DNA of 64,000 nt from contig OZ244852.1 of assembly GCA_965220965.1 (NCBI GenBank), positions 1,632,001 through 1,696,000 of the forward strand, in the 5' to 3' direction. Source of the DNA: Candidatus Marinacidobacterium sp. (GTDB lineage Bacteria > Acidobacteriota > Vicinamibacteria > Marinacidobacterales > Marinacidobacteraceae). The notes beneath the pieces were generated by a model that had not been told where the DNA came from, ran no database searches, and saw only the letters and a program-made list of their open reading frames with translations. This document shows, piece after piece, positions 27,696 through 38,344 of this stretch. The translations under genes and the position numbers were made by a program. The first letter of the stretch is position 1. The number at the start of each line of letters is the position of its first letter.

Positions 27696-30600
27696 GCCTT
27701 CCCCGCCTCGCGGTCAACCGGCCGGTCACGACCGCGATGGTGCTGCTCAGCACGCTGGTGCTGGGCGCGATCTCGCTGAACCGGATCCCGCTGGCGTTCC
27801 TGCCCGAGGTCGACTTCCCCGGGGTCTTCGTCACCGTTCCCTACCAGAACGCGAGCCCCAGCCAGATCGAGCGCGAGATCGTCCAGCCACTCGAAGAGGC
27901 GCTCGCCACGATCCCCGGCGCCCGCAGGATCCGTTCGACCGCCGAGGCCGACTCGGCCAGCCTGCAGCTCGAGTTCACCTGGGGCGAGAGCGTGGATGTG
28001 GCGCGGGCCAAGGTCTTCGAGGCGGTGGAGGACGCCCGTCCCGAGCTTCCCGAGGATGTCCGCGACATCTTCGTGAACACCTTCTCCACGAACGAGATCC
28101 CGATCGTGGAGGCGCGCATTTCGGCGCCCGGGCTCGACCTGTCGGCGAACTACGAGCGGCTCGACCGGCGGATCGCGGACCCGATCCGGCGGATCCCCGG
28201 CGTCGCGCGGGTGGACCTGAACGGGGTCGAGCCCCGCGAAGTGCGGATCAATCTCCGCGCCGACCGGATCGCCGCGCACCGGGTGGACCTCGGCCAGGTC
28301 GCCGACCGCGTCCAGAACATGAACCGGAACCTCTCGCTGGGCCGGATCCGCGCCGAGGGCGAAGTCACCCCGGTGCGGGGGTTCGGGGCGCTTTCGGCGG
28401 TCGATGAGATCGGGTCGCTGCCGCTGAACGAGGACGGGCTGCGGATCGGCGACATCGCCGATGTCACCTGGCGGGAACCGCCCATCCCGTTCGGGCGGCG
28501 GCTGAACGACGACGCCGCGGTGGCGCTGACGGTCTTCAAGGCGGCCGAAGCGAACGCGGTGGATGTAGCGACCGCGGTCGTAGACGAGATCGAAACCGAA
28601 ATCGCCGCCGATCCGGCGCTCGCCGGGATCACCCTGTTCGTCTGGGACGACCAGGCGGCGGCGATCACCGCCGGGCTCGCCGGGATCCGCACCGAGGGGC
28701 TGCTGGGCGCGCTGCTGGCGGTCTTCGTGCTCTTCCTGTTCCTCCGCCGGGTGGACTCCACCACGATCGTGAGCCTCACGATCCCGATGTCCATCATCGC
28801 GACCGCGACGATCCTCTACTTCACCGGAAGGACCCTCAACGTCCTGTCGATGATGGGGATGATGCTCGGGATCGGGCTGCTGGTGGACGACGCCATCGTG
28901 GTCCTCGAGTCGGTCGTCCGCGAACACGCCCGGGGCCTTCCGGCGAAGGCGGCCGCCATCGTGGGGAGCCGCGCGGTGTCCGGCGCGGTGATCGCCTCCA
29001 CCGTGACCACGGCGGTCGTCTTCCTGCCGACGGTGCTCGGGACGAAGAACGAGATGACGATCTGGCTCGGGGAGATCGGTCTGGCGATCTCGCTGACGAT
29101 CTTCTGCTCGCTGTTCATCTCGCTGACCCTGATCCCGCTGGTCAGTTCGCGCCTGCTGGCGCGGCGCGCGTCGGTTCCCCCCGCCTGGACCGAACGCCTG
29201 GGGGCCGCCTACCAGCGGGCGCTGCGGTTCACGCTCCGGCGGCGCTGGATCACCGCCGGGATCGCCGCGGCGTTCCTGGTCACCGCGCTCGCGCCGTTCT
29301 TCCTCGGCCTCTCGACCGCGATGTTCGCGGGGGTGAACCGGAACCGGATCTTCCTCTCCTACGAGTTCGCCGACTTCCACTACAAGGAGGACTCGGAACG
29401 CGCGGTGATCGCGGTGGAGCGCGAGATCGCGGATCTCGCCGACCGGCTCGACGTGGAGTCGGTCTACAGCTACTTCGGCGAGAACGAAGCCCAGACGGTG
29501 ATCTCGCTGGGCGCCGACCACATCAGCGACGAGGAGGGCAAGGAGCTTCGCGAGGAGATCCGCGCGGCGCTGCCGCCGCTGCCCGGCGTCCGGATCGTCT
29601 TCGGGGACGACGACCAGGAGACCGGCGGCGAGAGCCTGTTCTTCCGGGTCCGCTTCTACGGGGAGGACTCGGAGCGCTTCCCGGAGCTTCTCGCCCGGGC
29701 GGAAGACCGGCTGGAAGCCATCGACGGCGTCACCGACATCCGCAGCCAGCAGGACAACGTGCGCCGGGAAGTCGTGGTGCGGCCCCGCACCGAAGCGGCC
29801 GCGCGGGCCGGGGTGACGGCGCGCGATCTGTCCGAGATCTTCGGGTTCAGCCTCGGGGGACGCCCGCTCCGGCGCTTTCAGACGGCGGACCGGGAGACCG
29901 AAGTGCTCCTCACGATGTCGCAGCAGGACATCTCCCGGGTGGAGGACCTCCGGAGCTTCACGCTGCTGGACGACGACGGCGCGCCGATGCGGCTCGGCGA
30001 CCTCGCCGACTTCGAGATCGTGGAGCGCCCGCGGGCGATCCAGCGGGTCGACCGGCGGGTGGTGAGCACGCTGCGCGCCGCCTACGAGGGCGACGCCTGG
30101 GAATCCACCCGCGAACAAATCGAGCAGGACATGGACGCGCTCGAGCTGCCCGAGGGATTCTCGTGGTCCTTCGGCGACCGGATCGCCCAGCAGGACCGGG
30201 ATCTCCAGACGATGCTCCTGAACTACCTGCTGGCGCTCATGCTGATCTACATCGTGATGGCGGCGCAGTTCGAGTCGCTGATCCACCCGCTGGCGATCCT
30301 CATCTCGATCCCCTACGCGGTCTGGGGCGCCGCCTGGCTCCTGCTGCTCACCGACAGCCCGTTCAATCTGATGGCCCAGATCGGACTGCTGATCCTGATG
30401 GGGATCGTGGTCAAGAACGGCATCGTGCTGATCGACCACGTGAACCGGCTGCGCCGGGAGGGTATGGAGCGCACCGAAGCGCTCGTCGTCGGAGGCCGCG
30501 ACCGCCTCCGCCCGATCCTGATGACCGCCGCCGCCACCATGCTGGCGCTCGTGCCGATGGCGGTCGGACGCACCGGTCTCGACGGGCTCTACTACTTCCC

Positions 30601-30781
30601 GCTGGCGCGCACGGTGATCGGCGGGCTCGCCGCCTCGACCGTCCTGACGCTGCTCATCCTGCCGTTCTTCTACACGCTACTCGACGACCTCGCGACGAAG
30701 GCGCGCAAGGCCTGGCGAGCGAGTGAAGCGCCGGCGCCCGAGCGAACGCCGGCGCCGGACGCGGCGCCCGCCCGGGTCTGA
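27692..30781 (+). CDS. RND efflux permease (AcrB/SwrC-like), subunit 2
   Basis: GTGA overlap; GLLVDDAIVVLE, GIVVKNGIVLID, RLRPILMT; 1029 aa. Confidence 0.95.
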   Translation: MSLPRLAVNRPVTTAMVLLSTLVLGAISLNRIPLAFLPEVDFPGVFVTVPYQNASPSQIEREIVQPLEEALATIPGARRIRSTAEADSASLQLEFTWGESVDVARAKVFEAVEDARPELPEDVRDIFVNTFSTNEIPIVEARISAPGLDLSANYERLDRRIADPIRRIPGVARVDLNGVEPREVRINLRADRIAAHRVDLGQVADRVQNMNRNLSLGRIRAEGEVTPVRGFGALSAVDEIGSLPLNEDGLRIGDIADVTWREPPIPFGRRLNDDAAVALTVFKAAEANAVDVATAVVDEIETEIAADPALAGITLFVWDDQAAAITAGLAGIRTEGLLGALLAVFVLFLFLRRVDSTTIVSLTIPMSIIATATILYFTGRTLNVLSMMGMMLGIGLLVDDAIVVLESVVREHARGLPAKAAAIVGSRAVSGAVIASTVTTAVVFLPTVLGTKNEMTIWLGEIGLAISLTIFCSLFISLTLIPLVSSRLLARRASVPPAWTERLGAAYQRALRFTLRRRWITAGIAAAFLVTALAPFFLGLSTAMFAGVNRNRIFLSYEFADFHYKEDSERAVIAVEREIADLADRLDVESVYSYFGENEAQTVISLGADHISDEEGKELREEIRAALPPLPGVRIVFGDDDQETGGESLFFRVRFYGEDSERFPELLARAEDRLEAIDGVTDIRSQQDNVRREVVVRPRTEAAARAGVTARDLSEIFGFSLGGRPLRRFQTADRETEVLLTMSQQDISRVEDLRSFTLLDDDGAPMRLGDLADFEIVERPRAIQRVDRRVVSTLRAAYEGDAWESTREQIEQDMDALELPEGFSWSFGDRIAQQDRDLQTMLLNYLLALMLIYIVMAAQFESLIHPLAILISIPYAVWGAAWLLLLTDSPFNLMAQIGLLILMGIVVKNGIVLIDHVNRLRREGMERTEALVVGGRDRLRPILMTAAATMLALVPMAVGRTGLDGLYYFPLARTVIGGLAASTVLTLLILPFFYTLLDDLATKARKAWRASEAPAPERTPAPDAAPARV

Positions 30782-30915
30782 ATTGGCGGCCTCGTCGCGG
30801 CCATTTGCGGTCCCGGCGCGGTGGTACGCTCCGGTCGCTTCTGGCCGTTTCCTGCCTCTTCTTCTGGCGACCGTCGGTCTCGTTGCCCCTCTGAACTGCA
30901 AGTCTGCTTTCCCTC

Positions 30916-32244
30916 ATGGCGCGCGTTACTGAACTCATCTTGAGGGATGTCCGCTGCTTCCAGGACCTTCAGCGCGCCCGCGTGCGGCCTATCACTCTGC
31001 TGGTAGGCGAAAACAGCACCGGGAAGACGAGCTTTCTGGCGAGCTACTACGCCTTCCGTCGCATGCTGCGGGCGCCTTTTGGCGCAGCGCATCCCGATTT
31101 CAACATAGAGCCCTTCTCGATGGGTTCTTTCCGGGACATCGTGCGCTCTCGCCTCGGGCCCAAGGGACTCCTCGACACATTTCAGATCGGCATTCAAGTC
31201 ACCCGAGACCAGGCGCAGTCACGATACGACGTACTCGCCACTTTCGACGAACAGAGTTCTCAGCCACGGCTCGCCTCCTTGGTCTACTCAGTTGAGAATA
31301 CCGGTCAACTCTCGTTGCGCAGCGACCTCAATGGACGCACGCGCGTGTCGGTGGGTAATGATGAGGTCACACTCCCTGAACCGATGGACATCCTGTCACT
31401 CGCCCGCCAGATCTCGTACGGGATACGCGATCTACCGAGCACTCTCCCCGACATGGAGCGCCTAGTGCAGTTTCTTGAGTCCCGATCACAGAAGGGGAGC
31501 CGTAGCCCTACTAGCAAACTTCTCTTCCCCGATTTGCCACGATTGGCCGCTATCGCTCCACTCCGCGCGAAACCACGCCGCACGTACGACCCGATCCAGG
31601 AGGCGAGGACGCCGGCGGGTGCTCACGTTCCCATGTTGATGATGCGGCTCGCCCGCGCCGAAGGCGAACGGTGGGCAAGCCTCCGCCGGGCCCTCGTCAA
31701 GTTCGGTGAGGATTCGGGCCTGTTCTCTGATATCAGGGTCAAGACGCACGGCAAACAGATGGGCGACCCCTTCCAGCTCCAGGTCAAAGTGCACTCGGGA
31801 TCCCATGCGAACCTCATGGACGTGGGCTACGGCGTCAGCCAGAGTCTTCCCATTCTCGTGGAGCTCGTCGCCGCCGAGCTGGAGAAGAGCCCAAGGGCTA
31901 GGCCAGCGCCCTCGCAGTTCCTTCTGCAGCAGCCCGAGGTGCATCTCCACCCACGCGCCCAGGCGGAGCTCGCCAGCTTTCTGGTGCATTCCGTCACGCA
32001 CAGAAAGCACTCGTTCCTGGTCGAAACACACAGCGACTTCATCCTGGACCGCGTGCGAATCTGTGTGCGTAGAGGTGAGATTTCGCCGGATGACGTCTCC
32101 ATCCTTTTCTTTGAGCCGAGAAGGAACGCTGTTGCTGTGAACAACCTGACGCTCGACCCTGAGGGCAACATCCGGGACGCGCCGGCCGGTTACCGGGACT
32201 TCTTCCTTCGGGAGACGGACACCCTTCTCGGGTTCGTGAATTGA
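30916..32244 (+). CDS. ABC-type AAA ATPase (AAA_15/AAA_21, DUF3696-like) with atypical Walker B
   Basis: Walker A LLVGENSTGKTS, signature LMDVGYGVSQSLP, Walker B region FLLQQPEVHLHP, H-loop FLVETHSD, C-terminal DPEGNIRDAPAGYRDFF; visibly more A/T-ending codons than flanks. Confidence 0.85.
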   Translation: MARVTELILRDVRCFQDLQRARVRPITLLVGENSTGKTSFLASYYAFRRMLRAPFGAAHPDFNIEPFSMGSFRDIVRSRLGPKGLLDTFQIGIQVTRDQAQSRYDVLATFDEQSSQPRLASLVYSVENTGQLSLRSDLNGRTRVSVGNDEVTLPEPMDILSLARQISYGIRDLPSTLPDMERLVQFLESRSQKGSRSPTSKLLFPDLPRLAAIAPLRAKPRRTYDPIQEARTPAGAHVPMLMMRLARAEGERWASLRRALVKFGEDSGLFSDIRVKTHGKQMGDPFQLQVKVHSGSHANLMDVGYGVSQSLPILVELVAAELEKSPRARPAPSQFLLQQPEVHLHPRAQAELASFLVHSVTHRKHSFLVETHSDFILDRVRICVRRGEISPDDVSILFFEPRRNAVAVNNLTLDPEGNIRDAPAGYRDFFLRETDTLLGFVN

Positions 32245-32257
32245 GAGGCGGCTCGCC

Positions 32258-32701
32258 GTGTGCCTGATTATCGACACGAACCGCATCGGCACATTCCTGG
32301 CGAGTCCCCCGCACCCCGACACCCTCCCCATCCATCGGTGGTTGACGAAGCAAGGCGGGATGATCGTGTACTCAGTTGCGGGGGAATTTGGGGAGGAACT
32401 GTCCAGCACGGCGAAGTCCCGTCTGTTCGCGCTCTCCCAGGCGGGTCGCGCGCGCCTCGTTCCCGCTGGCCGCGTCACAGATGAGCTCGAGCGCCTTCAG
32501 CAGAGCCCGGAATTGCAGTCCGACGACCCGCACGTGCTGGCGCTCGCCCGGGCCAGCGGCACGCGTCTTCTCTACACCGGGGACAGGAAGCTCATGGATG
32601 ACTTCCGGGACAAGCGGATCATCGACAACCCGAGGGGCAAGATCTACTCCGGTCAGCAGAACCATCGCCTGCTGACGGCGACGACCTGCACCGCGAAGTA
32701 A
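32258..32701 (+). CDS. PIN-domain-like protein
   Basis: MCLIIDTN, SDDPHVLALA, LLYTGDRKL acidic pattern typical of PIN nucleases; SD GAGAGG, 13 nt after ATPase stop. Confidence 0.7.
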   Translation: MCLIIDTNRIGTFLASPPHPDTLPIHRWLTKQGGMIVYSVAGEFGEELSSTAKSRLFALSQAGRARLVPAGRVTDELERLQQSPELQSDDPHVLALARASGTRLLYTGDRKLMDDFRDKRIIDNPRGKIYSGQQNHRLLTATTCTAK

Positions 32702-32929
32702 CCGGGCGAAACGGTCACGCCGCCGCGCGGCGGGAGAGGAGGGCTGCTCGCCCGGTGTTCGCCTCGGCTGCGCCCGTCCCGGCGTCCGTCGACGCCTGAA
32801 ATCAGGGGTCGCCGGCGGGAGGAGAGTGAGCGCGGGCGGGCCAGCGTCCCCGGCGACTCGCGACGGACCGGCTGAAGTGGAACCAGTCTTGCGACGGAAC
32901 GTAATTCGGGGAAAGACGGGAGGACGACG

Positions 32930-34141
32930 ATGCGCCATAGCGGAAGCAGGAAATACCGGTCCACGCATCCGTGGATCCGCTTTCCCGAGGATGTGCAGGC
33001 TCCTCCCCTCGTCTGGTCCCTCCTCGGACAGGTGGTCGCGAGATCGGAGACCCTGGCGCGAATGCCGCTGCCTCCCGAGGCCTCGAGGGAGCTTCACACG
33101 CTCTGGCTGGTGAAGGCCGTGCGCGCCTCCGCCGCGATCGGGGGCGAGACCCTGAGCGAGTCCGAGGTCCGGGCGCGAGTCGAGGGAGGCGAGAAACCGC
33201 CGCCGTCGCGGGCGCACCTTGGAGTCGAAGTCGACGGACTGCTCGATGCGCACAACAACGTCCGCGTCGCGCTCCTGACGGACGAACACCTGACGCTGAG
33301 CCGTGAGCGTCTCAGCGAGTGGAACCGCCTGATGCTCGAAGGGCTGGAGGCCTATATCGCCGAGGAGGCCATTGCCGGCGAGCTCCGGCGTTTCGACATC
33401 ACCCCGGGCAACTACCGCGGAGCGCCCGCCAGGGACTGCCGTTATCTGCTCGACCGGTTCACCGAATGGATCGAGACGGATCTGGGTGTCGGGAAGACGG
33501 AGGACCGCCAGAGCCTCGACATCCTCCGGGGGCTGCTCGCCCACGTCTACCTCGTGTGGATCCAGCCCTTTGGCGACGGGAACGGGCCGACCGCCCGTCT
33601 CGCCGAGTTCTTCTTTCTTCTTCGCTCCGGGCTCCCCTCACCGAGTTGCCATCTGCTCACGGACCACTACTACCGGACCCGAGACGAGTACTACCGGCGA
33701 CTGGACCGTTCCACGACGGCCGGCTTCGGCCGCGGTGATCCGTGGCGGTTCGTCACTTACGCCCTCGAAGGCCTCGTGGACGGTCTGAAGGAGCAGGCCA
33801 CAGCCGTGGAGCGCATCCAGATCCAACTCGCATGGCCCGGCTTCGTTCGCGAACAGGTCGGGGGCCGCCAGGCGGCGAGGCGGGAGCGCCGCGTGCTTCT
33901 CGCCGCCACGATCGCCAAGGCCGAAGCAGGCGCCTCCCGATCCCGACTGCTGCGTCATCCGGACCTGGCGCACGCCTACGCGCGTGGGAGGGGCAAGACC
34001 CTGACGAGGGACCTGAACCGGCTCATCGACCGGGAGCTGGTGGAGAAGTCCGACGCCGGCTACCGCGCCCGCACCGACCGACTCCGGGCGCTGCGCCCGC
34101 GGCGCGGCGCCGGAACGGCGCGGGGCCAGCCCGACTCCTGA
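32930..34141 (+). CDS. Fic-family protein paralog with degenerate catalytic motif and C-terminal HTH
   Basis: WIQPFGDGNGPTAR instead of HPFxDGNGRxxR; SAAIGGE instead of (S/T)xxxEGN; KTLTRDLNRLIDRELV HTH-like; aligns end to end with 34423..35652. Confidence 0.88.
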   Translation: MRHSGSRKYRSTHPWIRFPEDVQAPPLVWSLLGQVVARSETLARMPLPPEASRELHTLWLVKAVRASAAIGGETLSESEVRARVEGGEKPPPSRAHLGVEVDGLLDAHNNVRVALLTDEHLTLSRERLSEWNRLMLEGLEAYIAEEAIAGELRRFDITPGNYRGAPARDCRYLLDRFTEWIETDLGVGKTEDRQSLDILRGLLAHVYLVWIQPFGDGNGPTARLAEFFFLLRSGLPSPSCHLLTDHYYRTRDEYYRRLDRSTTAGFGRGDPWRFVTYALEGLVDGLKEQATAVERIQIQLAWPGFVREQVGGRQAARRERRVLLAATIAKAEAGASRSRLLRHPDLAHAYARGRGKTLTRDLNRLIDRELVEKSDAGYRARTDRLRALRPRRGAGTARGQPDS

Positions 34142-34173
34142 GAACCGCCCGCGACGGCCGAAGGGCGGGAGTC

Positions 34174-34409
34174 TTGACGGACATCCATGTCCGACAAACC
34201 GGATTGACGGACATATGTCGCGTAATGTGGCCGACAACGGAACTTGTCGGCCACCGATGGCCGACAAACAGGCGCCGGGCGCGTCCGTATCGATGAAGGG
34301 GACATCTGAAGAGACATGAGTTCGGACGTACAGGACACCTGTCTACGCTGAAATCGTTGAAATACAATAGCTACACTGGAATCCGTTGACGGCGCAAGAG
34401 GGGACATCT
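34174..34409. repeat. Intergenic array of GACA/TGTC direct and inverted repeats
   Basis: TTGACGGACAT at 34174 and 34204; CGGACAT-CC-ATGTCCG 34178-34193; GACATATGTC 34210-34219; GTGGCCGACAA-6nt-TTGTCGGCCAC 34227-34254; TGGCCGACAA at 34228 and 34258; GGGGACATCT at 34298 and 34400. Confidence 0.85.
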
Positions 34410-34422
34410 ACCCGGACACGGC

Positions 34423-35652
34423 ATGGGTCACAACGGAACGAGGAAGTACGAATCCACCCACCCGTGGATCCGGTTCCGGCTGGATCTCGACCGGGCGCCG
34501 CGCCAGGCCTGGGTGCTCCTCGGACAGGCGGTGGCGCGCGCCGAACTGCTTCGAGAGTGCCTCATTCCCCATGAGGTTGCGCGCCGCTTCCATCGGACCT
34601 GGCTGATCAAGGGGGCTCGCGCCACCGCCGCCATCGAGGGCAACACGCTCACCGAGGCCGAAGTCGGGGCGCGCGCCGAGGGCCGGAGGGAGCTTCCTCG
34701 ATCCCGCGCCTACCTCGGCGTGGAAGTGGACAATGTCCTGCGCTCGTTCAACAGAGTTGACTCCGAGATCCTCGAAGGCGGCAATCCCCCACTGAGCCGT
34801 GAGCGGATCCAGGAATGGAACCGATGGACGCTCGACGATCTCGAGGGCCACTTCGCGGAGGGAGCCGACCCGGGCGCGCTCCGGCGGCACTCCGTCGTCG
34901 TCGGCCGATATCGCGGCGCCCCCGCCGAGGATTGCGGCTATCTGCTCGATCGCCTCGCCCGCTGGCTCGAGTCGGACTGGCCGGACGATGGAGCCAACAG
35001 CGAGGACCGGATGGCCGCCGGGATCCTCCGAGGGATCGCGGCCCACCTCTACATCGCCTGGATCCATCCGTTCGGAGACGGCAACGGACGGGTCGCCCGC
35101 CTCGCGGAACTCTTCTTTCTGCTGCGCTCCGGCGTCCCGGGTCCCGCATGCCACCTGCCGAGCAACCACTACTACCGGACGCGGGAGGAGTACTACCGCC
35201 AACTGTGTCGATCCCGGGCCGCCAACCACGGCCGCGGCGACCCCTGGGGCTTCGTGATCTACGCGCTCCAGGGGCTGGTGGACGGGCTTCGGGAACAGGC
35301 TGCGGTCCTGACGCCGATCCAGATCCGCCTCGCCTGGCCCGGATTCGTTCGCGACCGGGTCGGGGGGTCGCCCTCCCTCACGCAGGAGCGCCGGATCCTT
35401 CTCGCCGTCACCCTTGCGGATCACGACGCAGTCATCTCGCGGTCCGGTCTGCTGCGTCACCCGGAGCTCGCGCACATCTACGCCCGCCGGACCGGGAAGA
35501 CCCTGGCCCGCGACCTGAACTGGCTCATCGACCGGGAGCTGGTCGAGCGGACCGAGGGCGGCTATCGCGCCCGCACCGACCAGCTCGGGGCGCTGCGCCC
35601 GGGGGGTGCAGCTTGGCCAACGCCGGACCAGCCGGGTCCGGGAGGCGCGTGA
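34423..35652 (+). CDS. Fic-family protein (class II-type) with C-terminal HTH
   Basis: Intact WIHPFGDGNGRVAR; inhibitory TAAIEGN; KTLARDLNWLIDRELV. Confidence 0.92.
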   Translation: MGHNGTRKYESTHPWIRFRLDLDRAPRQAWVLLGQAVARAELLRECLIPHEVARRFHRTWLIKGARATAAIEGNTLTEAEVGARAEGRRELPRSRAYLGVEVDNVLRSFNRVDSEILEGGNPPLSRERIQEWNRWTLDDLEGHFAEGADPGALRRHSVVVGRYRGAPAEDCGYLLDRLARWLESDWPDDGANSEDRMAAGILRGIAAHLYIAWIHPFGDGNGRVARLAELFFLLRSGVPGPACHLPSNHYYRTREEYYRQLCRSRAANHGRGDPWGFVIYALQGLVDGLREQAAVLTPIQIRLAWPGFVRDRVGGSPSLTQERRILLAVTLADHDAVISRSGLLRHPELAHIYARRTGKTLARDLNWLIDRELVERTEGGYRARTDQLGALRPGGAAWPTPDQPGPGGA

Positions 35653-36767
35653 TGGCCCCTGTGCGCTATCCGATGGGCGGATTCCCGCCCGACGAGCGGA
35701 TCGACTGGCGAGCGTTGATCCCTCTGGTCGGAACGGCCTCAGCGGCCATCGGACGCTACGACGCGATGCTGGCCGCGACGCCGAACTCCGAGGCGCTCCT
35801 CGCTTGCCTGACACTACGGGAGGCCGTGCTCTCATCGCGCATCGAAGGCATCCACGCCACGATGGGGGAGGTGCTGGGGTTCGAGGCCGGCCAGGAACCG
35901 GAGTCGCCGATCCGGAGGGAGGACGTTCGGGAGGTGCTCAATTGCCGGGCTGCTCTCCTGCGGGCCGAAGGGCTTCTGGAGGCGTTGCCGCTTTCGCTTC
36001 GGGTCCTCCGGGAGACCCACAGCATCCTGATGGAGGGGGCGCGCGGAGTTGGGAAGGCTCCGGGCGAATTCCGGAGAACGCCGAACTGGATCGGGCCGCC
36101 AGGATGCAGCATCGAGAACGCCACGTTCGTTCCCATCGGGGCCGACGCGCTGCCCGACGCCATGTCGACCTGGGAGCGCTACATGAACTCCGCGGCGCCG
36201 GACCGGCTGGTGCAGCTCGCGATCCTGCACGCCGAGTTCGAGGCGCTCCACCCGTTTCTCGACGGGAACGGTCGACTGGGACGGATGCTCGTTCCGCTCT
36301 TTCTGTGGCGATGTGGCCTGATCCAGTCCCCCAGGTTCTACATCAGCGCCGCGCTCGTGGCTCGTCGGTACGACTACTACGAGCGACTGCTGGCCGTCTC
36401 CCGGGACGACGACTGGACCGGCTGGCTCCGGTTCTTCCTGGAAGCGGTGCGGATCCAGGCCGAGGACGATCTGGCGAGGGCGCAGGGGATCATCCAGCTC
36501 TACGAGACGATGAAGGTGCGTGTGGCCGACCTCACGCGGTCGCGCCACGCAATCCAGCTCCTGGACTGGATCTTCCGGGTTCCCATCTTCCGGAGTTCCC
36601 AGTTCACGCAGGCGACCGGAATCGCGGCCAAGACCGCGCAACGGCTGCTCCAGCGCCTGACGGAGGCGGAGATTCTGCGGGTGCTCCGGACCCGGCGCGG
36701 CCGGCGTCCAGCCATTTTCGTTTATCCGGAGCTGCTGAACCGGGCCGAGGGACAGAAGGCTTCTTGA
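35652..36767 (+). CDS. Fic/DOC-family protein (Fic_N + Fic + winged HTH)
   Basis: TGATG overlap with upstream stop; EAVLSSRIEG, PGEFRRTPNWIG, FEALHPFLDGNGRLGR; C-terminal KTAQRLLQRLTEAEIL. Confidence 0.93.
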   Translation: MAPVRYPMGGFPPDERIDWRALIPLVGTASAAIGRYDAMLAATPNSEALLACLTLREAVLSSRIEGIHATMGEVLGFEAGQEPESPIRREDVREVLNCRAALLRAEGLLEALPLSLRVLRETHSILMEGARGVGKAPGEFRRTPNWIGPPGCSIENATFVPIGADALPDAMSTWERYMNSAAPDRLVQLAILHAEFEALHPFLDGNGRLGRMLVPLFLWRCGLIQSPRFYISAALVARRYDYYERLLAVSRDDDWTGWLRFFLEAVRIQAEDDLARAQGIIQLYETMKVRVADLTRSRHAIQLLDWIFRVPIFRSSQFTQATGIAAKTAQRLLQRLTEAEILRVLRTRRGRRPAIFVYPELLNRAEGQKAS

Positions 36768-36945
36768 CAGCCATCTGTGTCTGACCAACAGCCGTGAAGG
36801 ACGCACTTGGCAGAATGTGTCCGTCACTATGGTCCGAAGACGGAAATGCCCCGCAGAGAAGCCGCCAGCCCGCCGTTCAGCCCTTCTGAAGTCGACCGCG
36901 AGCAGGCCGAGGTCTGCTCCGGGGCTTGGGCGGCCTGAGGTTCCG

Positions 36946-37062
36946 ATGATCGACTACCGCAACTTCCGCATCGCGCTGGCGCGGCTCGAAGCGCAGCACG
37001 AGAGCCATCTGGCGAAGCGGCGTGGCCTGTCGAACCCAGAGCGGGAACGGCGCTCCATCTGA
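36946..37062 (+). pseudogene. Probable truncated nucleotidyltransferase substrate-binding (HI0074/HEPN-like) gene
   Basis: MIDYRNFRIALARLEAQHESH...* (38 aa) recalls the N-terminus of HI0074-family proteins but stops before the expected IQRFE motif; recognition from memory only. Confidence 0.45.
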
Positions 37063-37093
37063 AGCCTCACACGGACGGACGAACTCACGGACC

Positions 37094-38344
37094 ATGACGG
37101 GCGCTGACTTGCTCCGGCAGTTCCGCGAAGCCCGGAAGGCGACGATGCGGCTCGTGGCGCCACTGGCGGTGGAGGACTTCGTGGCGGCGGCGCCCGACGC
37201 CAGTCCGGTGAAGTGGCATCTCGGCCACACGACCTGGTTCCTCGAGCACTACCTGCTCATCCCGCACGCCGCTCGCCACCAACGCTCGCATCCCGAGTAC
37301 GACGACCTCTTCGATCCCGGCCGTCGGCCTCTCCATCGCAACCGGGGTCTCTGGACGCGGCCCACCGTCGCGGAGGTCCTCGAGTACCGGCGGGTTGTTG
37401 AGGACTTGGTCGGCGAGCTGGTGGAGGCCGGGCTCTCCCCCGTCGCGGAGACCCCGCTCGCCATGGGGATCCACCACGAGGCGCTCCACCAGGAGCTGCT
37501 CCTGACCGAGCTGAAGCGTCTCTTCTGGAAGAACCCGCTCCACCCGGCCTACCGACAGCCCGGTGAAGCGTCCTCGGGGCGGCGGGCCGCCTCCCCCCTT
37601 CGCTTCCTTTCGTTTGCGGGTGGCGAAGTCGGGATCGGTCACGACGGGGACGGTTTCGCGTTCGCGAACGAGCTTCCCCGGCATCGCGCGCTGGTCCATC
37701 CGTTCCAGTTGGCCAGCCGGCTCATCACGAACCGGGAGTTCCAGGAGTTCATCCACGAGGACGGCTACCGGACCCGGTCGCTCTGGCTCGCCGACGGCTG
37801 GGAGGCGCGGGAGCGGTTCGGGTGGGAGGCGCCGCTCTACTGGGAGCGCGACGGCGAGGCCTGGATTGAATTCGGCTTCGAGGGGCTCAGGGCGCTCGAC
37901 CCGGGCGCCCCGGTGGCGCATGTCAGTTTGCACGAGGCCGACGCCTTCGCGCGCTGGCGCGGCGCTCGCCTGCCGACCGAGTTCGAGTGGGAGGCGGCGG
38001 CCGGGGGCGTCGCGGCGGGTGGCGCCTGCCTGGAGAGCGGCCGACTGGCGCCGGCGCCCGCCGACGCCGAGTCCGGCGGACCGGGGAACTCCGCGCCCAC
38101 GCAGCTTCTCGGCGATGTGTGGGAGTGGACCGGGAGCGCGCATCGCCCCTACCCCGGCTACCGGGCGGAAGACCGGGTTCCCGGCGACCCCACGACCGGG
38201 TTCTTCGGCGCCCGCGCCGTCCTGCGCGGCGGATCCTGCCTCACCCCCTCGCTCCTCGCGCGCCGCACGACCCGCCACCACCTCGCGCCGGAGAGCCGTC
38301 TCGCCTGCGCCGGCATCCGTCTCGCCCGCGATCTTCCCGGCTGA
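37094..38344 (+). CDS. EgtB-like sulfoxide synthase homolog (DinB + FGE-sulfatase), divergent
   Basis: PDASPVKWHLGHTTWFLE, RGLWTRPT, HHEALHQELL, RLPTEFEWE, GDVWEWT, VLRGGSC. Confidence 0.85.
   Translation: MTGADLLRQFREARKATMRLVAPLAVEDFVAAAPDASPVKWHLGHTTWFLEHYLLIPHAARHQRSHPEYDDLFDPGRRPLHRNRGLWTRPTVAEVLEYRRVVEDLVGELVEAGLSPVAETPLAMGIHHEALHQELLLTELKRLFWKNPLHPAYRQPGEASSGRRAASPLRFLSFAGGEVGIGHDGDGFAFANELPRHRALVHPFQLASRLITNREFQEFIHEDGYRTRSLWLADGWEARERFGWEAPLYWERDGEAWIEFGFEGLRALDPGAPVAHVSLHEADAFARWRGARLPTEFEWEAAAGGVAAGGACLESGRLAPAPADAESGGPGNSAPTQLLGDVWEWTGSAHRPYPGYRAEDRVPGDPTTGFFGARAVLRGGSCLTPSLLARRTTRHHLAPESRLACAGIRLARDLPG

What the first reader, a model, noticed from the sequence alone, without database searches (positions are those of the whole stretch)
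32930..35652. Tandem Fic paralogs: a full-length catalytically dead copy beside an active copy
Seen: the two proteins align end to end (RKYxSTHPWIRF ... YRARTDxLxALRP). Copy 2 has HPFGDGNGRVAR and TAAIEGN. Copy 1 has QPFGDGNGPTAR (CAG at 33563, CCG at 33587) and SAAIGGE, yet has no stop or frameshift and keeps the C-terminal HTH-like segment. Known: the Fic His is the catalytic base, the motif Arg residues bind ATP phosphates, and the (S/T)xxxE(G/N) Glu is the auto-inhibitory/deAMPylation residue. Inference: losing both motifs while keeping the scaffold looks like a selected pseudo-enzyme, for example a dominant-negative antitoxin, a decoy or a DNA-binding regulator of its active twin, rather than random decay.
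Basis: partly seen in the sequence, partly recalled or inferred. Interest (0 to 1): 0.78.

Follow-up and report, generated by a model that had tools for sequence, protein, structure and literature searches.

The report
Dead Fic paralog beside active twin
One of two neighbouring copies of a bacterial protein-modifying (Fic) gene has lost its catalytic residues but still looks kept by selection, most likely as a non-catalytic partner or DNA-binding regulator of its active twin.

Summary
Fic1 (32930-34141) and Fic2 (34423-35652) are 59% identical end to end. Fic1 reads QPFGDGNGPTAR and SAAIGGE; Fic2 keeps HPFGDGNGRVAR and TAAIEGN. Two independent read assemblies reproduce the stretch without a difference. 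Same-genus relatives carry one Fic between the same flanking genes, so the pair is a lineage-specific duplication of roughly species-split age. No closer relative of Fic1 turned up among 5.8 billion proteins. Fic1 is not a plain pseudogene: omega on its branch is 0.15 and omega = 1 is rejected. It has no frameshift, keeps a Shine-Dalgarno sequence and folds confidently. Its loss is wider than two motifs but stays in the catalytic half: it alone departs at 17 of 63 highly conserved sites in residues 1-245 and at 0 of 26 in residues 246-395 (linker + wHTH). The wHTH-coding 3' end also shows gene conversion with Fic2. A Fic1:Fic2 dimer model passes its controls, perhaps only through likeness to solved Fic dimers. 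Best reading: a retained pseudo-enzyme acting through dimerisation or DNA binding. It is a new variant of known themes (CccR, SoFic, Bartonella BepC), seen in one genome.

The parts
32930..34141 (+). Fic1: full-length class-II-type Fic + wHTH paralog with a dismantled catalytic centre (403 aa)
   Evidence: ORF; Pfam Fic 33.1 bits; AF2 pLDDT 90.2, pTM 0.87; Foldseek matches full-length wHTH-Fic structures 8cil, 4rgl, 7xux, 3eqx; branch omega 0.149, omega=1 rejected
33128..33148 (+). Remnant of the inhibitory-helix motif in Fic1: SAAIGGE (family: (S/T)xAIEGN); E71G and N73E
   Evidence: Alignments: E in 90 of 91 and N in 90 of 91 family members; Fic1 is the exception
33563..33598 (+). Remnant of the Fic motif in Fic1: QPFGDGNGPTAR (H212Q by CAG, R220P by CCG; F, D, GNG and the last R kept)
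   Evidence: Sequence; family census H 87 / Q 3 / gap 1 of 91, and R 89 / P 1 / gap 1 of 91
33934..34099 (+). wHTH-coding 3' part of Fic1 with raised nucleotide identity to Fic2 (probable gene-conversion tract; partner 35436-35601)
   Evidence: dS 0.41 for codons 331-395 against 0.81-1.27 elsewhere; third-position identity 0.70-0.78; DNA alignment A4
34174..34267 (.). Array of six half-sites TTGwCGGmCA / TGkCCGACAA forming two 24-nt palindromes 70 bp apart plus a middle pair; either operator-like DNA or hairpins in the RNA after Fic1
   Evidence: the repeat finder; 4 of the window's 6 KCCGACAA sites lie here; the palindrome pattern occurs only at these two places in the 3.25-Mb genome, with 0 hits for the control pattern; absent upstream of the orthologs in 10 relatives; RNA fold z -2.46
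34423..35652 (+). Fic2: intact paralog (409 aa), positional ortholog of the single Fic of the same-genus relatives
   Evidence: Motifs TAAIEGN (34624-34644) and HPFGDGNGRVAR (35065-35100); 0 departures at 55 conserved columns; synteny RND-Fic-EgtB in G001 and G002
35652..36767 (+). Fic3: SoFic-type Fic_N + Fic + C-terminal domain gene (371 aa); its ATG overlaps the Fic2 TGA by one base
   Evidence: Sequence tgATGg; Pfam Fic_N 75.8 and Fic 63.9 bits; PADLOC SoFic 1.9e-103, 344.6 bits
30916..32701 (+). Context: inserted two-gene module, AAA_15/AAA_21 ATPase (30916-32244) plus PIN-like orf147 (32258-32701), in a low-GC stretch
   Evidence: Pfam; PADLOC NsnB 1.1e-40 and PDC-M55A 6.2e-36; GC 0.59-0.64; orf147 homolog directly downstream in 45 of 60 related loci from several phyla, none followed by a Fic gene; Atlas lead to PIN

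Best explanation
Fic1 is a retained, catalytically inert paralog (pseudo-enzyme) of a class-II Fic + winged-helix protein. A resident gene lay between an RND transporter gene and egtB. It was duplicated in tandem in this lineage, roughly when the lineage split from its congeners. In one copy the catalytic apparatus was dismantled: the catalytic His, the first motif Arg, the inhibitory Glu/Asn and flap residues. The fold, the N-terminal dimerisation helix, the linker helices and the wHTH stayed under constraint. The most likely mode of action (inferred, not shown) is division of labour. The ancestral protein was both an enzyme and a dimeric DNA-binding autoregulator, as shown for CccR and SoFic. 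Fic1 keeps only the non-catalytic half of that job. It would form dimers, including heterodimers with Fic2, and/or bind DNA upstream of the Fic2-Fic3 operon, so setting the level or activity of the two active, potentially toxic Fic enzymes. Shown here: the sequence state, the duplication history, purifying selection, domain-restricted relaxation and a dimer model that passes its controls. Inferred: loss of catalysis, heterodimer formation in the cell, DNA binding and any effect on Fic2 or Fic3.
For: Real and old. Two read assemblies reproduce the stretch with 0 differences. G001 and G002 have RND - one Fic - EgtB. The codon ML tree puts Fic1 and Fic2 as sisters (lnL -5205.23 against -5233.74; favoured in all 4 partitions). 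dS Fic1-Fic2 is 0.85, against 0.89-0.90 for egtB between G000 and its congeners. Selected. Fic1 branch omega is 0.149 and omega = 1 is rejected (2dlnL 27.9). For residues 1-270 alone omega is 0.155, with omega = 1 rejected at p 6e-6 (my own GY94-F3x4 script). There are no frame-breaking indels, and the codon-position GC and the SD are intact. Domain-restricted loss. Fic1-specific against Fic2-specific residues number 59:15 in residues 1-270, 6:8 in 271-330 and 4:6 in 331-390 (Fisher p 0.0075 and 0.014). At sites at least 90% conserved in 83 distant members, Fic1 alone departs at 17 of 63 in residues 1-245 and at 0 of 26 in 246-395 (p 0.002; p 0.03 for 246-335, which shows no conversion). Eight of the 17 are radical, and six of those eight lie in the inhibitory motif, the flap or the Fic motif. 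Fold and partner. pLDDT is 90.2 and the full-length wHTH-Fic fold is recovered. The Fic2+Fic1 complex scores 0.82 against a best control of 0.00 among 3 controls (that mark was reached by 116 of 157 solved complexes and 2 of 215 mismatched pairs). The runs agree in at least 69% of contacts and the partner pLDDT is at least 83. The interface uses the N-terminal helix 24-55, residues 283-305 and 384-391. Precedent. CccR represses its own promoter through its wHTH at palindromes, and its regulatory and toxic activities are independent (PMC9755527, passages read). SoFic needs dimerisation for AMPylation and for binding its own promoter (bioRxiv 10.64898/2026.07.09.737422, abstract and passages read).
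Against: Fic1 is a singleton. No ortholog above 59% identity exists among 5.8 billion proteins, so selection is inferred from one branch only. The rise of omega on that branch is not significant (0.149 against 0.089, p 0.145). The C-terminal partition alone cannot reject omega = 1 (p 0.14). The high similarity of the wHTH part is at least partly due to gene conversion, which weakens it as evidence of constraint. The dimer pass may merely reflect likeness to solved Fic homodimers (SoFic, CccR, CbFic2) and says nothing about the cell. The palindromes are not found upstream of the orthologs in 10 relatives. They lie 155-250 nt before the Fic2 ATG and could equally be RNA hairpins. Null alleles of this family arise readily. 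These include an H-to-Q allele 99-100% identical to His alleles, a deletion variant and three frameshifted genes among 80 metagenome loci.
Confidence: 0.5

Rival explanations
1. Young pseudogene: Fic1 worked as an ordinary enzyme for most of the time since the duplication, was knocked out fairly recently, and is on its way to loss. The low omega would then be a memory of its active past.
For: The Fic1 branch omega does not differ significantly from the background (p 0.145). There is no ortholog to date the loss. Inactivated relatives are common: Q alleles at 99-100% identity to His alleles in 2 of 7 members of one cluster, P0015 with the motif region deleted, and 3 frameshifted genes plus 1 split gene in 80 metagenome loci. 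In 70% G+C DNA an open frame persists long by chance.
Against: Seventeen hits at highly conserved sites, eight of them radical, imply a long time without catalytic constraint. Over the same time 0 of 26 conserved sites changed in residues 246-395. If the rate were uniform, the chance of that is about 0.73^26 = 3e-4, or 0.73^15 = 0.009 for residues 246-335 only (counts; the arithmetic is mine). There are also no frame-breaking indels, omega = 1 is rejected even for the relaxed half, and the SD is intact.
Confidence: 0.17
2. Fic1 still has a ligand-dependent or enzymatic role with an altered centre. One option is nucleotide binding without transfer, as a sensor. Another is residual or different chemistry with Gln in place of His.
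For: F, D, GNG and the second Arg of the motif loop are kept. Gln replaces the catalytic His four times independently in this family: Fic1, P0071/P0096, P0079 and L104, which are mutually 37-42% identical, each with closer His relatives. A Doc clade of 45 sequences with Gln for His is in print, and its authors argue for retained function (PMC4454073, passages read).
Against: Fic1 has additionally lost the first Arg to a Pro, the regulatory Glu and two flap residues. The other Gln members keep all of these. One Gln allele is a very young variant, which fits a null allele better than a new function.
Confidence: 0.1
3. Fic1 acts independently of Fic2, for example as a decoy or sensor for a phage protein that targets Fic defence enzymes, within a defence island.
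For: The locus is island-like. It holds an inserted ATPase + PIN-like module with PADLOC matches and low GC, and a SoFic-type gene. The Fido half of Fic1 evolves about 3 times faster than that of Fic2 (M0 branch lengths 1.44 against 0.47).
Against: There is no direct evidence and no recurrence of such a pair elsewhere. The acceleration shows no sign of positive selection (omega 0.155).
Confidence: 0.1

Closest known systems
CccR of Yersinia pseudotuberculosis (Fic + wHTH; PDB 7xux; PMC9755527, passages read)
   Same: Both have a Fic domain with an N-terminal inhibitory helix followed by a C-terminal HTH domain, and both dimerise through the N-terminal region. CccR represses its own promoter at two inverted repeats. 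Its regulatory and toxic activities were shown to be independent, which is the precedent for a wHTH-Fic protein working without catalysis. Foldseek aligns the Fic1 model to 7xux over 386 columns (E 3.2e-7).
   Different: CccR is one catalytically active protein that does both jobs and is secreted by a T6SS. Here the jobs would be split between two paralogs, and nothing has been tested. Sequence identity is about 18%. The palindromes here have a different sequence and spacing, and lie further upstream.
SoFic / EcSofic anti-phage defence proteins (PADLOC SoFic; bioRxiv 10.64898/2026.07.09.737422, abstract and passages; PMC12249575, abstract and section 2.1)
   Same: They are class II Fic + wHTH proteins. 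AMPylation or toxicity depends on homodimerisation through the N-terminal helix. SoFic binds its own promoter. EcSofic toxicity is countered by a neighbouring gene product (AS1). Fic3 of this window matches the PADLOC SoFic model at 1.9e-103, and Fic1 and Fic2 at 2.2e-36 and 3.7e-40.
   Different: Fic1 and Fic2 belong to a separate subfamily. They have no Fic_N Pfam hit and score 27-29 bits against NCBIfam SoFic, whose cut-off is 550. The known counter-protein AS1 is a 47-aa peptide, not a full-length dead paralog.
Bartonella effector proteins (Beps), e.g. BepC (PMC8401265, passages read)
   Same: They are repeatedly duplicated Fic genes. Only about half keep the canonical motif. [quoted passage not shown]
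   Different: Beps derive from a class I FicTA module, carry OB and BID domains, and are secreted into host cells. They have no wHTH and are not paired with an active twin as a regulator.
Doc clade D2 with Gln in place of the catalytic His (PMC4454073, passages read)
   Same: It shows the same His-to-Gln replacement at the catalytic position of a Fido-fold protein, conserved across 45 sequences.
   Different: These are single-domain Doc proteins with an NKR-type motif. The rest of the motif is kept there, whereas Fic1 has also lost the first Arg and the inhibitory Glu.
Class I FicTA modules such as VbhT-VbhA (recalled from Engel et al. 2012, not read here; mentioned in PMC8401265)
   Same: A neighbouring gene product keeps a Fic toxin in check.
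   Different: That antitoxin is a small protein which inserts the inhibitory Glu in trans. Fic1 has lost this Glu (E71G), so it cannot act in that way.

Membership tests
Fic/Fido domain (Pfam PF02661) | Profile match above the gathering score, and the Fido fold | tested here: met
   Fic1 33.1 bits and Fic2 45.1 bits, cut-off 24. The Fic1 model matches solved Fic proteins at probability 1.00.
Canonical AMPylating Fic enzymes | Signature HxFx(D/E)GN(G/K)RxxR with the catalytic His and both Arg | tested here: not met
   Fic1 reads QPFGDGNGPTAR: the His and the first Arg are replaced. Fic2 and Fic3 meet the signature.
Class II Fic proteins (intramolecular N-terminal inhibitory helix) | Motif (S/T)xxxE(G/N) N-terminal of the Fic core | tested here: not met
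   Fic1 reads SAAIGGE, with the Glu replaced by Gly. Fic2 (TAAIEGN) meets it. The helix itself is still modelled (H49-69).
SoFic defence system / SoFic equivalog | Match to the PADLOC SoFic model; NCBIfam NF046030 at or above 550 bits | tested here: inconclusive
   PADLOC: Fic3 344.6 bits, Fic2 136.4, Fic1 124. NCBIfam: Fic3 170.6, Fic2 28.6, Fic1 27.1, all below 550. Defence activity cannot be tested here.
wHTH-Fic autoregulators (CccR-like) | C-terminal winged HTH retained | tested here: met
   The model has helices 337-367 and a beta hairpin 371-380. It aligns full length to 8cil, 7xux and 3eqx. All 11 highly conserved sites of residues 336-395 are shared with Fic2.
wHTH-Fic autoregulators (CccR-like) | Palindromic operator in the promoter of the regulated gene, bound by the dimer | tested here: inconclusive
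   Palindromes at 34174-34267 are unique in the genome. They are absent upstream of the orthologs, no consensus promoter was found, and binding cannot be tested here.
wHTH-Fic dimers | Dimerisation through the N-terminal helix | tested here: inconclusive
   The complex model scores 0.82 against a best control of 0.00, and its interface includes residues 24-55 of both chains. This may be memory of solved homodimers. Six Fic1-specific changes fall in 50 interface residues against 9 expected (p 0.37).
Pseudogene | Stops or frameshifts, omega near 1, loss of coding signals | tested here: not met
   No stop or frame-breaking indel. Omega = 1 is rejected. The codon-position GC is kept and the SD is present.
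FicTA class I antitoxin | Supplies the inhibitory Glu in trans | tested here: not met
   E71G in Fic1.

The most novel reading that the evidence does not exclude
A bifunctional toxin-repressor was split by duplication into an enzyme and a full-length 'paralog antitoxin'. Dead Fic1 would be the dedicated repressor and dominant-negative dimer partner that holds the active Fic2 and the translationally coupled SoFic-type Fic3 in check. Gene conversion of the wHTH region would keep both paralogs reading the same operator. This would be a way of regulating Fic toxins or defence genes that has not been described: neither a small antitoxin nor an intramolecular inhibitory helix.
Probability: 0.2. Interest if true: 0.65.

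Novelty: new variant of a known kind. Interest (0 to 1): 0.42.

Why it matters
Fic enzymes are toxic when unrestrained. Their known brakes are an inhibitory helix, a small antitoxin, the oligomeric state and autorepression. A full-length dead paralog kept beside its active twin would add a further brake. It would also be a natural separation of the enzymatic and regulatory roles that CccR and SoFic combine in one protein. The case shows as well how to tell a pseudo-enzyme from a pseudogene when no ortholog exists, by using domain-restricted loss of constraint. Its weight is limited because it occurs in a single lineage and nothing has been tested at the bench.

Tried and rejected
(1) Assembly error was rejected: two read assemblies agree with the window.
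(2) Orthologs of Fic1 with the QPF..GP signature were not found. Searched: 5.8 billion proteins, 41 and 55 related genomes and 80 metagenome loci. The metagenome scan used intact motifs as bait, so it could only find dead copies lying within 3 kb of an intact one.
(3) Fic1 as part of the upstream ATPase + PIN-like system was rejected. The pair recurs without a Fic gene (45 of 60 loci have orf147 downstream and none has an adjacent Fic; L031 and L032 have a Fic3-like gene about 5 kb upstream).
(4) The protein ML tree leaves the order of Fic1, Fic2, G004 and the G001 clade unresolved (supports 73/36 and 32/59). Only the codon model separates the topologies.
(5) The partitioned branch model for the C-terminal 126 codons was unstable and inconclusive.
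(6) 'Gln is specially selected at the catalytic position' was weakened. In the P0071 cluster 2 of 7 members have Q and 5 have H, and six of the seven are 99-100% identical to P0071 (the seventh 89%).
(7) Expression: no RNA holder was listed for the stretch, so nothing can be said about it.
(8) No sigma-70-type promoter or intrinsic terminator consensus in 32600-34500 and no Rfam match in 30500-37500 at E up to 0.1.
(9) The motif GGACAY is not enriched window-wide (70 against 57.9 expected).
(11) Ancestral-state reconstruction was not available. I used counts of departures from the majority residue of distant members instead.
(12) Earlier findings of this scan were not open.
(13) Small ORFs after Fic3 (31-81 aa) were looked at as possible AS1-like genes. 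Nothing supports any of them.
Full report
OBSERVATION. On the + strand lie two ORFs, 32930..34141 (Fic1, 403 aa) and 34423..35652 (Fic2, 409 aa). They align end to end: 237 identities in 404 columns (59%), 3 gaps, E 5e-162. Both pass Pfam Fic (33.1 and 45.1 bits; cut-off 24). Fic1 has CAG at 33563 and CCG at 33587 (QPFGDGNGPTAR), where Fic2 has CAT and CGG (HPFGDGNGRVAR). Fic1 has SAAIGGE where Fic2 has TAAIEGN. Logan contigs of two runs from two studies (depth about 115 and 7.3) each cover 32700-36800 in one piece with no difference. One of them may be the window's own source, but the substitutions are not assembly errors. One caveat applies: in this roughly 70% G+C DNA, long open frames occur by chance, and one search lists 390- and 475-aa ORFs antisense to the two genes. 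The absence of frame-breaking indels counts for more than the absence of stops.

A third Fic gene (Fic3, 35652..36767, 371 aa) starts with an ATG that shares its A with the TGA of Fic2. It has Fic_N + Fic (75.8 and 63.9 bits) and intact SSRIEG and HPFLDGNGRLGR motifs. It matches the PADLOC SoFic model at 1.9e-103. Upstream of Fic1 lie an AAA_15/AAA_21 ATPase (30916..32244; PADLOC NsnB 1.1e-40, PDC-M55A 6.2e-36) and a 147-aa ORF (32258..32701). The ORF has no Pfam, PADLOC or NCBIfam match but resembles PIN-domain clusters in the ESM Atlas (0.96; a lead only). This stretch has 0.59-0.64 G+C, against 0.66-0.78 around it. The closest relatives of the ATPase (50-57% identity) are in MAGs labelled Acidobacteriota-type and Gammaproteobacteria. 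An orf147 homolog follows directly in 45 of 60 related loci, and no Fic gene is adjacent in any of them. It is therefore an independent, horizontally acquired two-gene module.

HISTORY. In two same-genus genomes (G001, G002) the order is RND transporter (89% identical) - one Fic - EgtB-like gene. Fic2 is nearer to those single copies (65-67%) than Fic1 is (56-58%). In the order, 13 of 55 genomes carry the subfamily at E <= 1e-40 and only G000 has two copies. Of 94 proteins at E <= 1e-20 in a 5.8-billion-protein collection, the nearest to Fic1 is Fic2 (59%), followed by the congeners' orthologs (55-58%). A protein ML tree does not resolve Fic1, Fic2, G004 and the G001 clade (supports 73/36 and 32/59); the end branches are 0.66 for Fic1 and 0.36 for Fic2. 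A codon model (GY94-F3x4, my own script, 5 genes, 396 codons) prefers Fic1+Fic2 as sisters (lnL -5205.23 against -5233.74). That holds in all four partitions (delta lnL 15.3, 2.2, 8.6 and 0.4 against the better alternative). dS Fic1-Fic2 is 0.85 by NG86. This is comparable with egtB between G000 and its congeners (0.89-0.90). The pair is thus an old, lineage-specific duplication, later flanked by inserted genes.

IS FIC1 DECAYING? On the Fic1 branch omega is 0.149, against 0.089 in the background. The rise is not significant (2dlnL 2.12, p 0.145), but omega = 1 is rejected (2dlnL 27.9). For residues 1-270 alone omega is 0.155 and omega = 1 is rejected (p 6e-6). The C-terminal 126 codons alone are inconclusive (p 0.14, unstable estimates). 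The GC pattern by codon position (.725/.506/.836) equals that of Fic2 (.746/.516/.839). GGGAGGA lies 5 nt before the ATG. AlphaFold2 with a 31-row alignment gives pLDDT 90.2 and pTM 0.87. Foldseek finds full-length Fic + wHTH structures: Coxiella Fic2 8cil, 4rgl, CccR 7xux and SoFic 3eqx, besides FICD.

WHERE FIC1 CHANGED. Residues were polarised by three outgroups. Fic1-specific residues number 71 and Fic2-specific 31 (p 7e-5). The split is 59:15 in residues 1-270, 6:8 in 271-330 and 4:6 in 331-390 (Fisher p 0.0075 and 0.014). Among 91 family members, 55 columns are at least 95% conserved. Fic1 departs at 8 of them (G63A, E71G, N73E, Y96H, N103G, P149A, H212Q, R220P). Fic2 departs at none and the median is 0. 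Against the majority residue of 83 distant members, Fic1 differs at 21 of 88 sites conserved at 90% or more. Fic2 and five close orthologs differ at 9-12. In the less conserved classes Fic1 is like the others. Fic1 alone departs at 17 of 63 such sites in residues 1-245 and at 0 of 26 in residues 246-395 (p 0.002; p 0.03 using 246-335 only). Nine of the 17 are conservative (T/S, V/I, L/I, L/V, L/F, A/S, A/V, N/D, G/A). Eight are radical: two each in the inhibitory motif, the Fic motif and the flap strand, and two in helix 92-117. It also argues against plain decay, which would not spare the C-terminal 150 residues.

A COMPLICATION. Between Fic1 and Fic2, dS is 0.41 for codons 331-395 against 0.81-1.27 elsewhere, and third-position identity reaches 0.70-0.78 there. 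The DNA alignment shows runs such as 36 nt with 2 mismatches. The wHTH-coding ends have probably been homogenised by gene conversion. The similarity of that segment is therefore not clean evidence of constraint. Residues 271-330 (dS 0.92) are free of this problem and still show symmetric rates and no lost conserved site.

HOW IT MAY WORK. I read passages of three papers on relatives. CccR, a Fic + wHTH protein, is a dimeric autorepressor. It binds two inverted repeats near its promoter through the C-terminal domain alone, and its regulatory and toxic activities are independent (PMC9755527). SoFic needs homodimerisation through its N-terminal helix for AMPylation and for binding its own promoter DNA (bioRxiv 10.64898/2026.07.09.737422). 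EcSofic is toxic, needs dimerisation, and is countered by a 47-aa neighbour, AS1 (PMC12249575, abstract and section 2.1). A Fic2+Fic1 complex model scores 0.82 (median of three runs). The best of 3 controls scores 0.00. The mark was reached by 116 of 157 solved complexes and 2 of 215 mismatched pairs. The runs agree in at least 69% of contacts and the partner pLDDT is at least 83. The interface uses residues 24-55 of both chains plus 283-305 and 384-391. Because homodimers of relatives are solved, the pass may only show likeness. Fic1-specific changes are not enriched in the 50 interface residues (6 against 9 expected; p 0.37).

THE INTERGENIC ARRAY. Between Fic1 and Fic2, 34174-34267 holds six half-sites TTGwCGGmCA / TGkCCGACAA. 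They form two 24-nt palindromes 70 bp apart plus a middle pair. The palindrome pattern occurs only at these two places in the 3.25-Mb genome. It is operator-like. However, it is absent upstream of the orthologs in 10 relatives and lies 155-250 nt before the Fic2 ATG. As RNA it also folds better than 198 of 200 shuffles (z -2.46). Its role is open.

BEST READING (confidence 0.5). Fic1 is a retained pseudo-enzyme that kept the dimerisation and DNA-binding half of a formerly bifunctional protein, and that modulates Fic2-Fic3.

RIVALS. A recently killed gene (0.17), altered ligand binding or chemistry (0.10), and an independent decoy or sensor role (0.10).

RELATED OBSERVATIONS THAT TEMPER THE STORY. 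His-to-Gln at the catalytic position arose independently in three other family members: P0071/P0096, P0079 and L104. These are mutually 37-42% identical, and each has closer His-bearing relatives. All three keep the Arg and the inhibitory Glu. In the P0071 cluster only 2 of 7 members have Gln; five of the other six are 99-100% identical to P0071 and one is 89%, so that allele is young. P0015, close to the G001 ortholog, lacks about 77 residues including the motif. Three of 80 metagenome loci show frameshifted genes and one a split gene. Inactivation of this family is thus frequent, which is why the pseudogene rival keeps weight.

COMPARISON AND NOVELTY. Dead or non-canonical Fic paralogs that act by binding are known: Bartonella BepC (PMC8401265, passages) and a Doc clade with Gln for His (PMC4454073, passages). 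So are wHTH-Fic proteins whose regulatory role does not need catalysis (CccR). A full-length dead twin next to its active paralog, proposed as its regulator, did not turn up in two full-text searches. One used 'pseudoenzyme' + 'Fic domain' (1 paper, a general review seen only as a listing). The other required at least 3 of 'Fic protein', 'paralog', 'heterodimer' and 'antitoxin' (138 papers, 10 listed, none on this). I rate the finding a new variant of a known kind, found in one lineage and untested. Interest 0.42.

Noticed in passing
window 35652-36767 (+): A third Fic gene of SoFic type (Fic_N + Fic, intact motifs; PADLOC SoFic 1.9e-103). Its ATG overlaps the Fic2 stop codon by one base, which suggests a Fic2-Fic3 operon. 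It is absent from the same locus in G001 and G002.
   Followed up: partly
window 30916-32701 (+): An AAA_15/AAA_21 ATPase (PADLOC NsnB, PDC-M55A) plus a 147-aa PIN-like ORF in a low-GC stretch. The pair recurs in 45 of 60 related loci from several phyla. It is a candidate two-gene defence module acquired horizontally.
   Followed up: partly
window 34174-34267: An array of six TTGwCGGmCA half-sites forming two 24-nt palindromes 70 bp apart. It is unique in the genome and not present upstream of the orthologs. It could be an operator or RNA hairpins after Fic1 (fold z -2.46).
   Followed up: partly
window 33934-34099 and 35436-35601: The wHTH-coding 3' ends of Fic1 and Fic2 are much more alike at synonymous sites (dS 0.41) than the rest of the genes (0.8-1.3). 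This is a probable gene-conversion tract.
   Followed up: partly
P0071/P0096, P0079; L104 2986-4182: Three further family members carry Gln at the catalytic His position. They arose independently and keep the Arg and the inhibitory Glu. L104 stands alone, with no second Fic within 3 kb. In the P0071 cluster 5 of 7 members (all but one 99-100% identical to P0071) keep His.
   Followed up: yes
P0015 (355 aa): A close relative of the G001 ortholog has an in-frame gap of about 77 residues that removes the whole Fic motif region, and a divergent C-terminus. It is a deletion variant, a pseudogene or a gene-call artefact.
   Followed up: partly
L129, L132, L138, L133: In three metagenome loci the family gene is split into two consecutive frames (a frameshift or a sequencing error). 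In L133 an N-terminal piece lies 2 kb upstream of a 5'-truncated gene.
   Followed up: no
window 33480-33630 and 33699-33849 (run X3): A third study holds 151-nt contigs of Fic1 with 1 and 0 differences at depth 3, so the organism or a very close strain occurs in another sample. The position of the single difference was not listed.
   Followed up: no
window 37022-38344 (+): An EgtB gene (TIGR03440, 415 bits). The relatives' proteins align only from residue 19-31 of this ORF, so the true start is probably later than 37022. That leaves about 300 nt after Fic3 holding only unsupported small ORFs.
   Followed up: no
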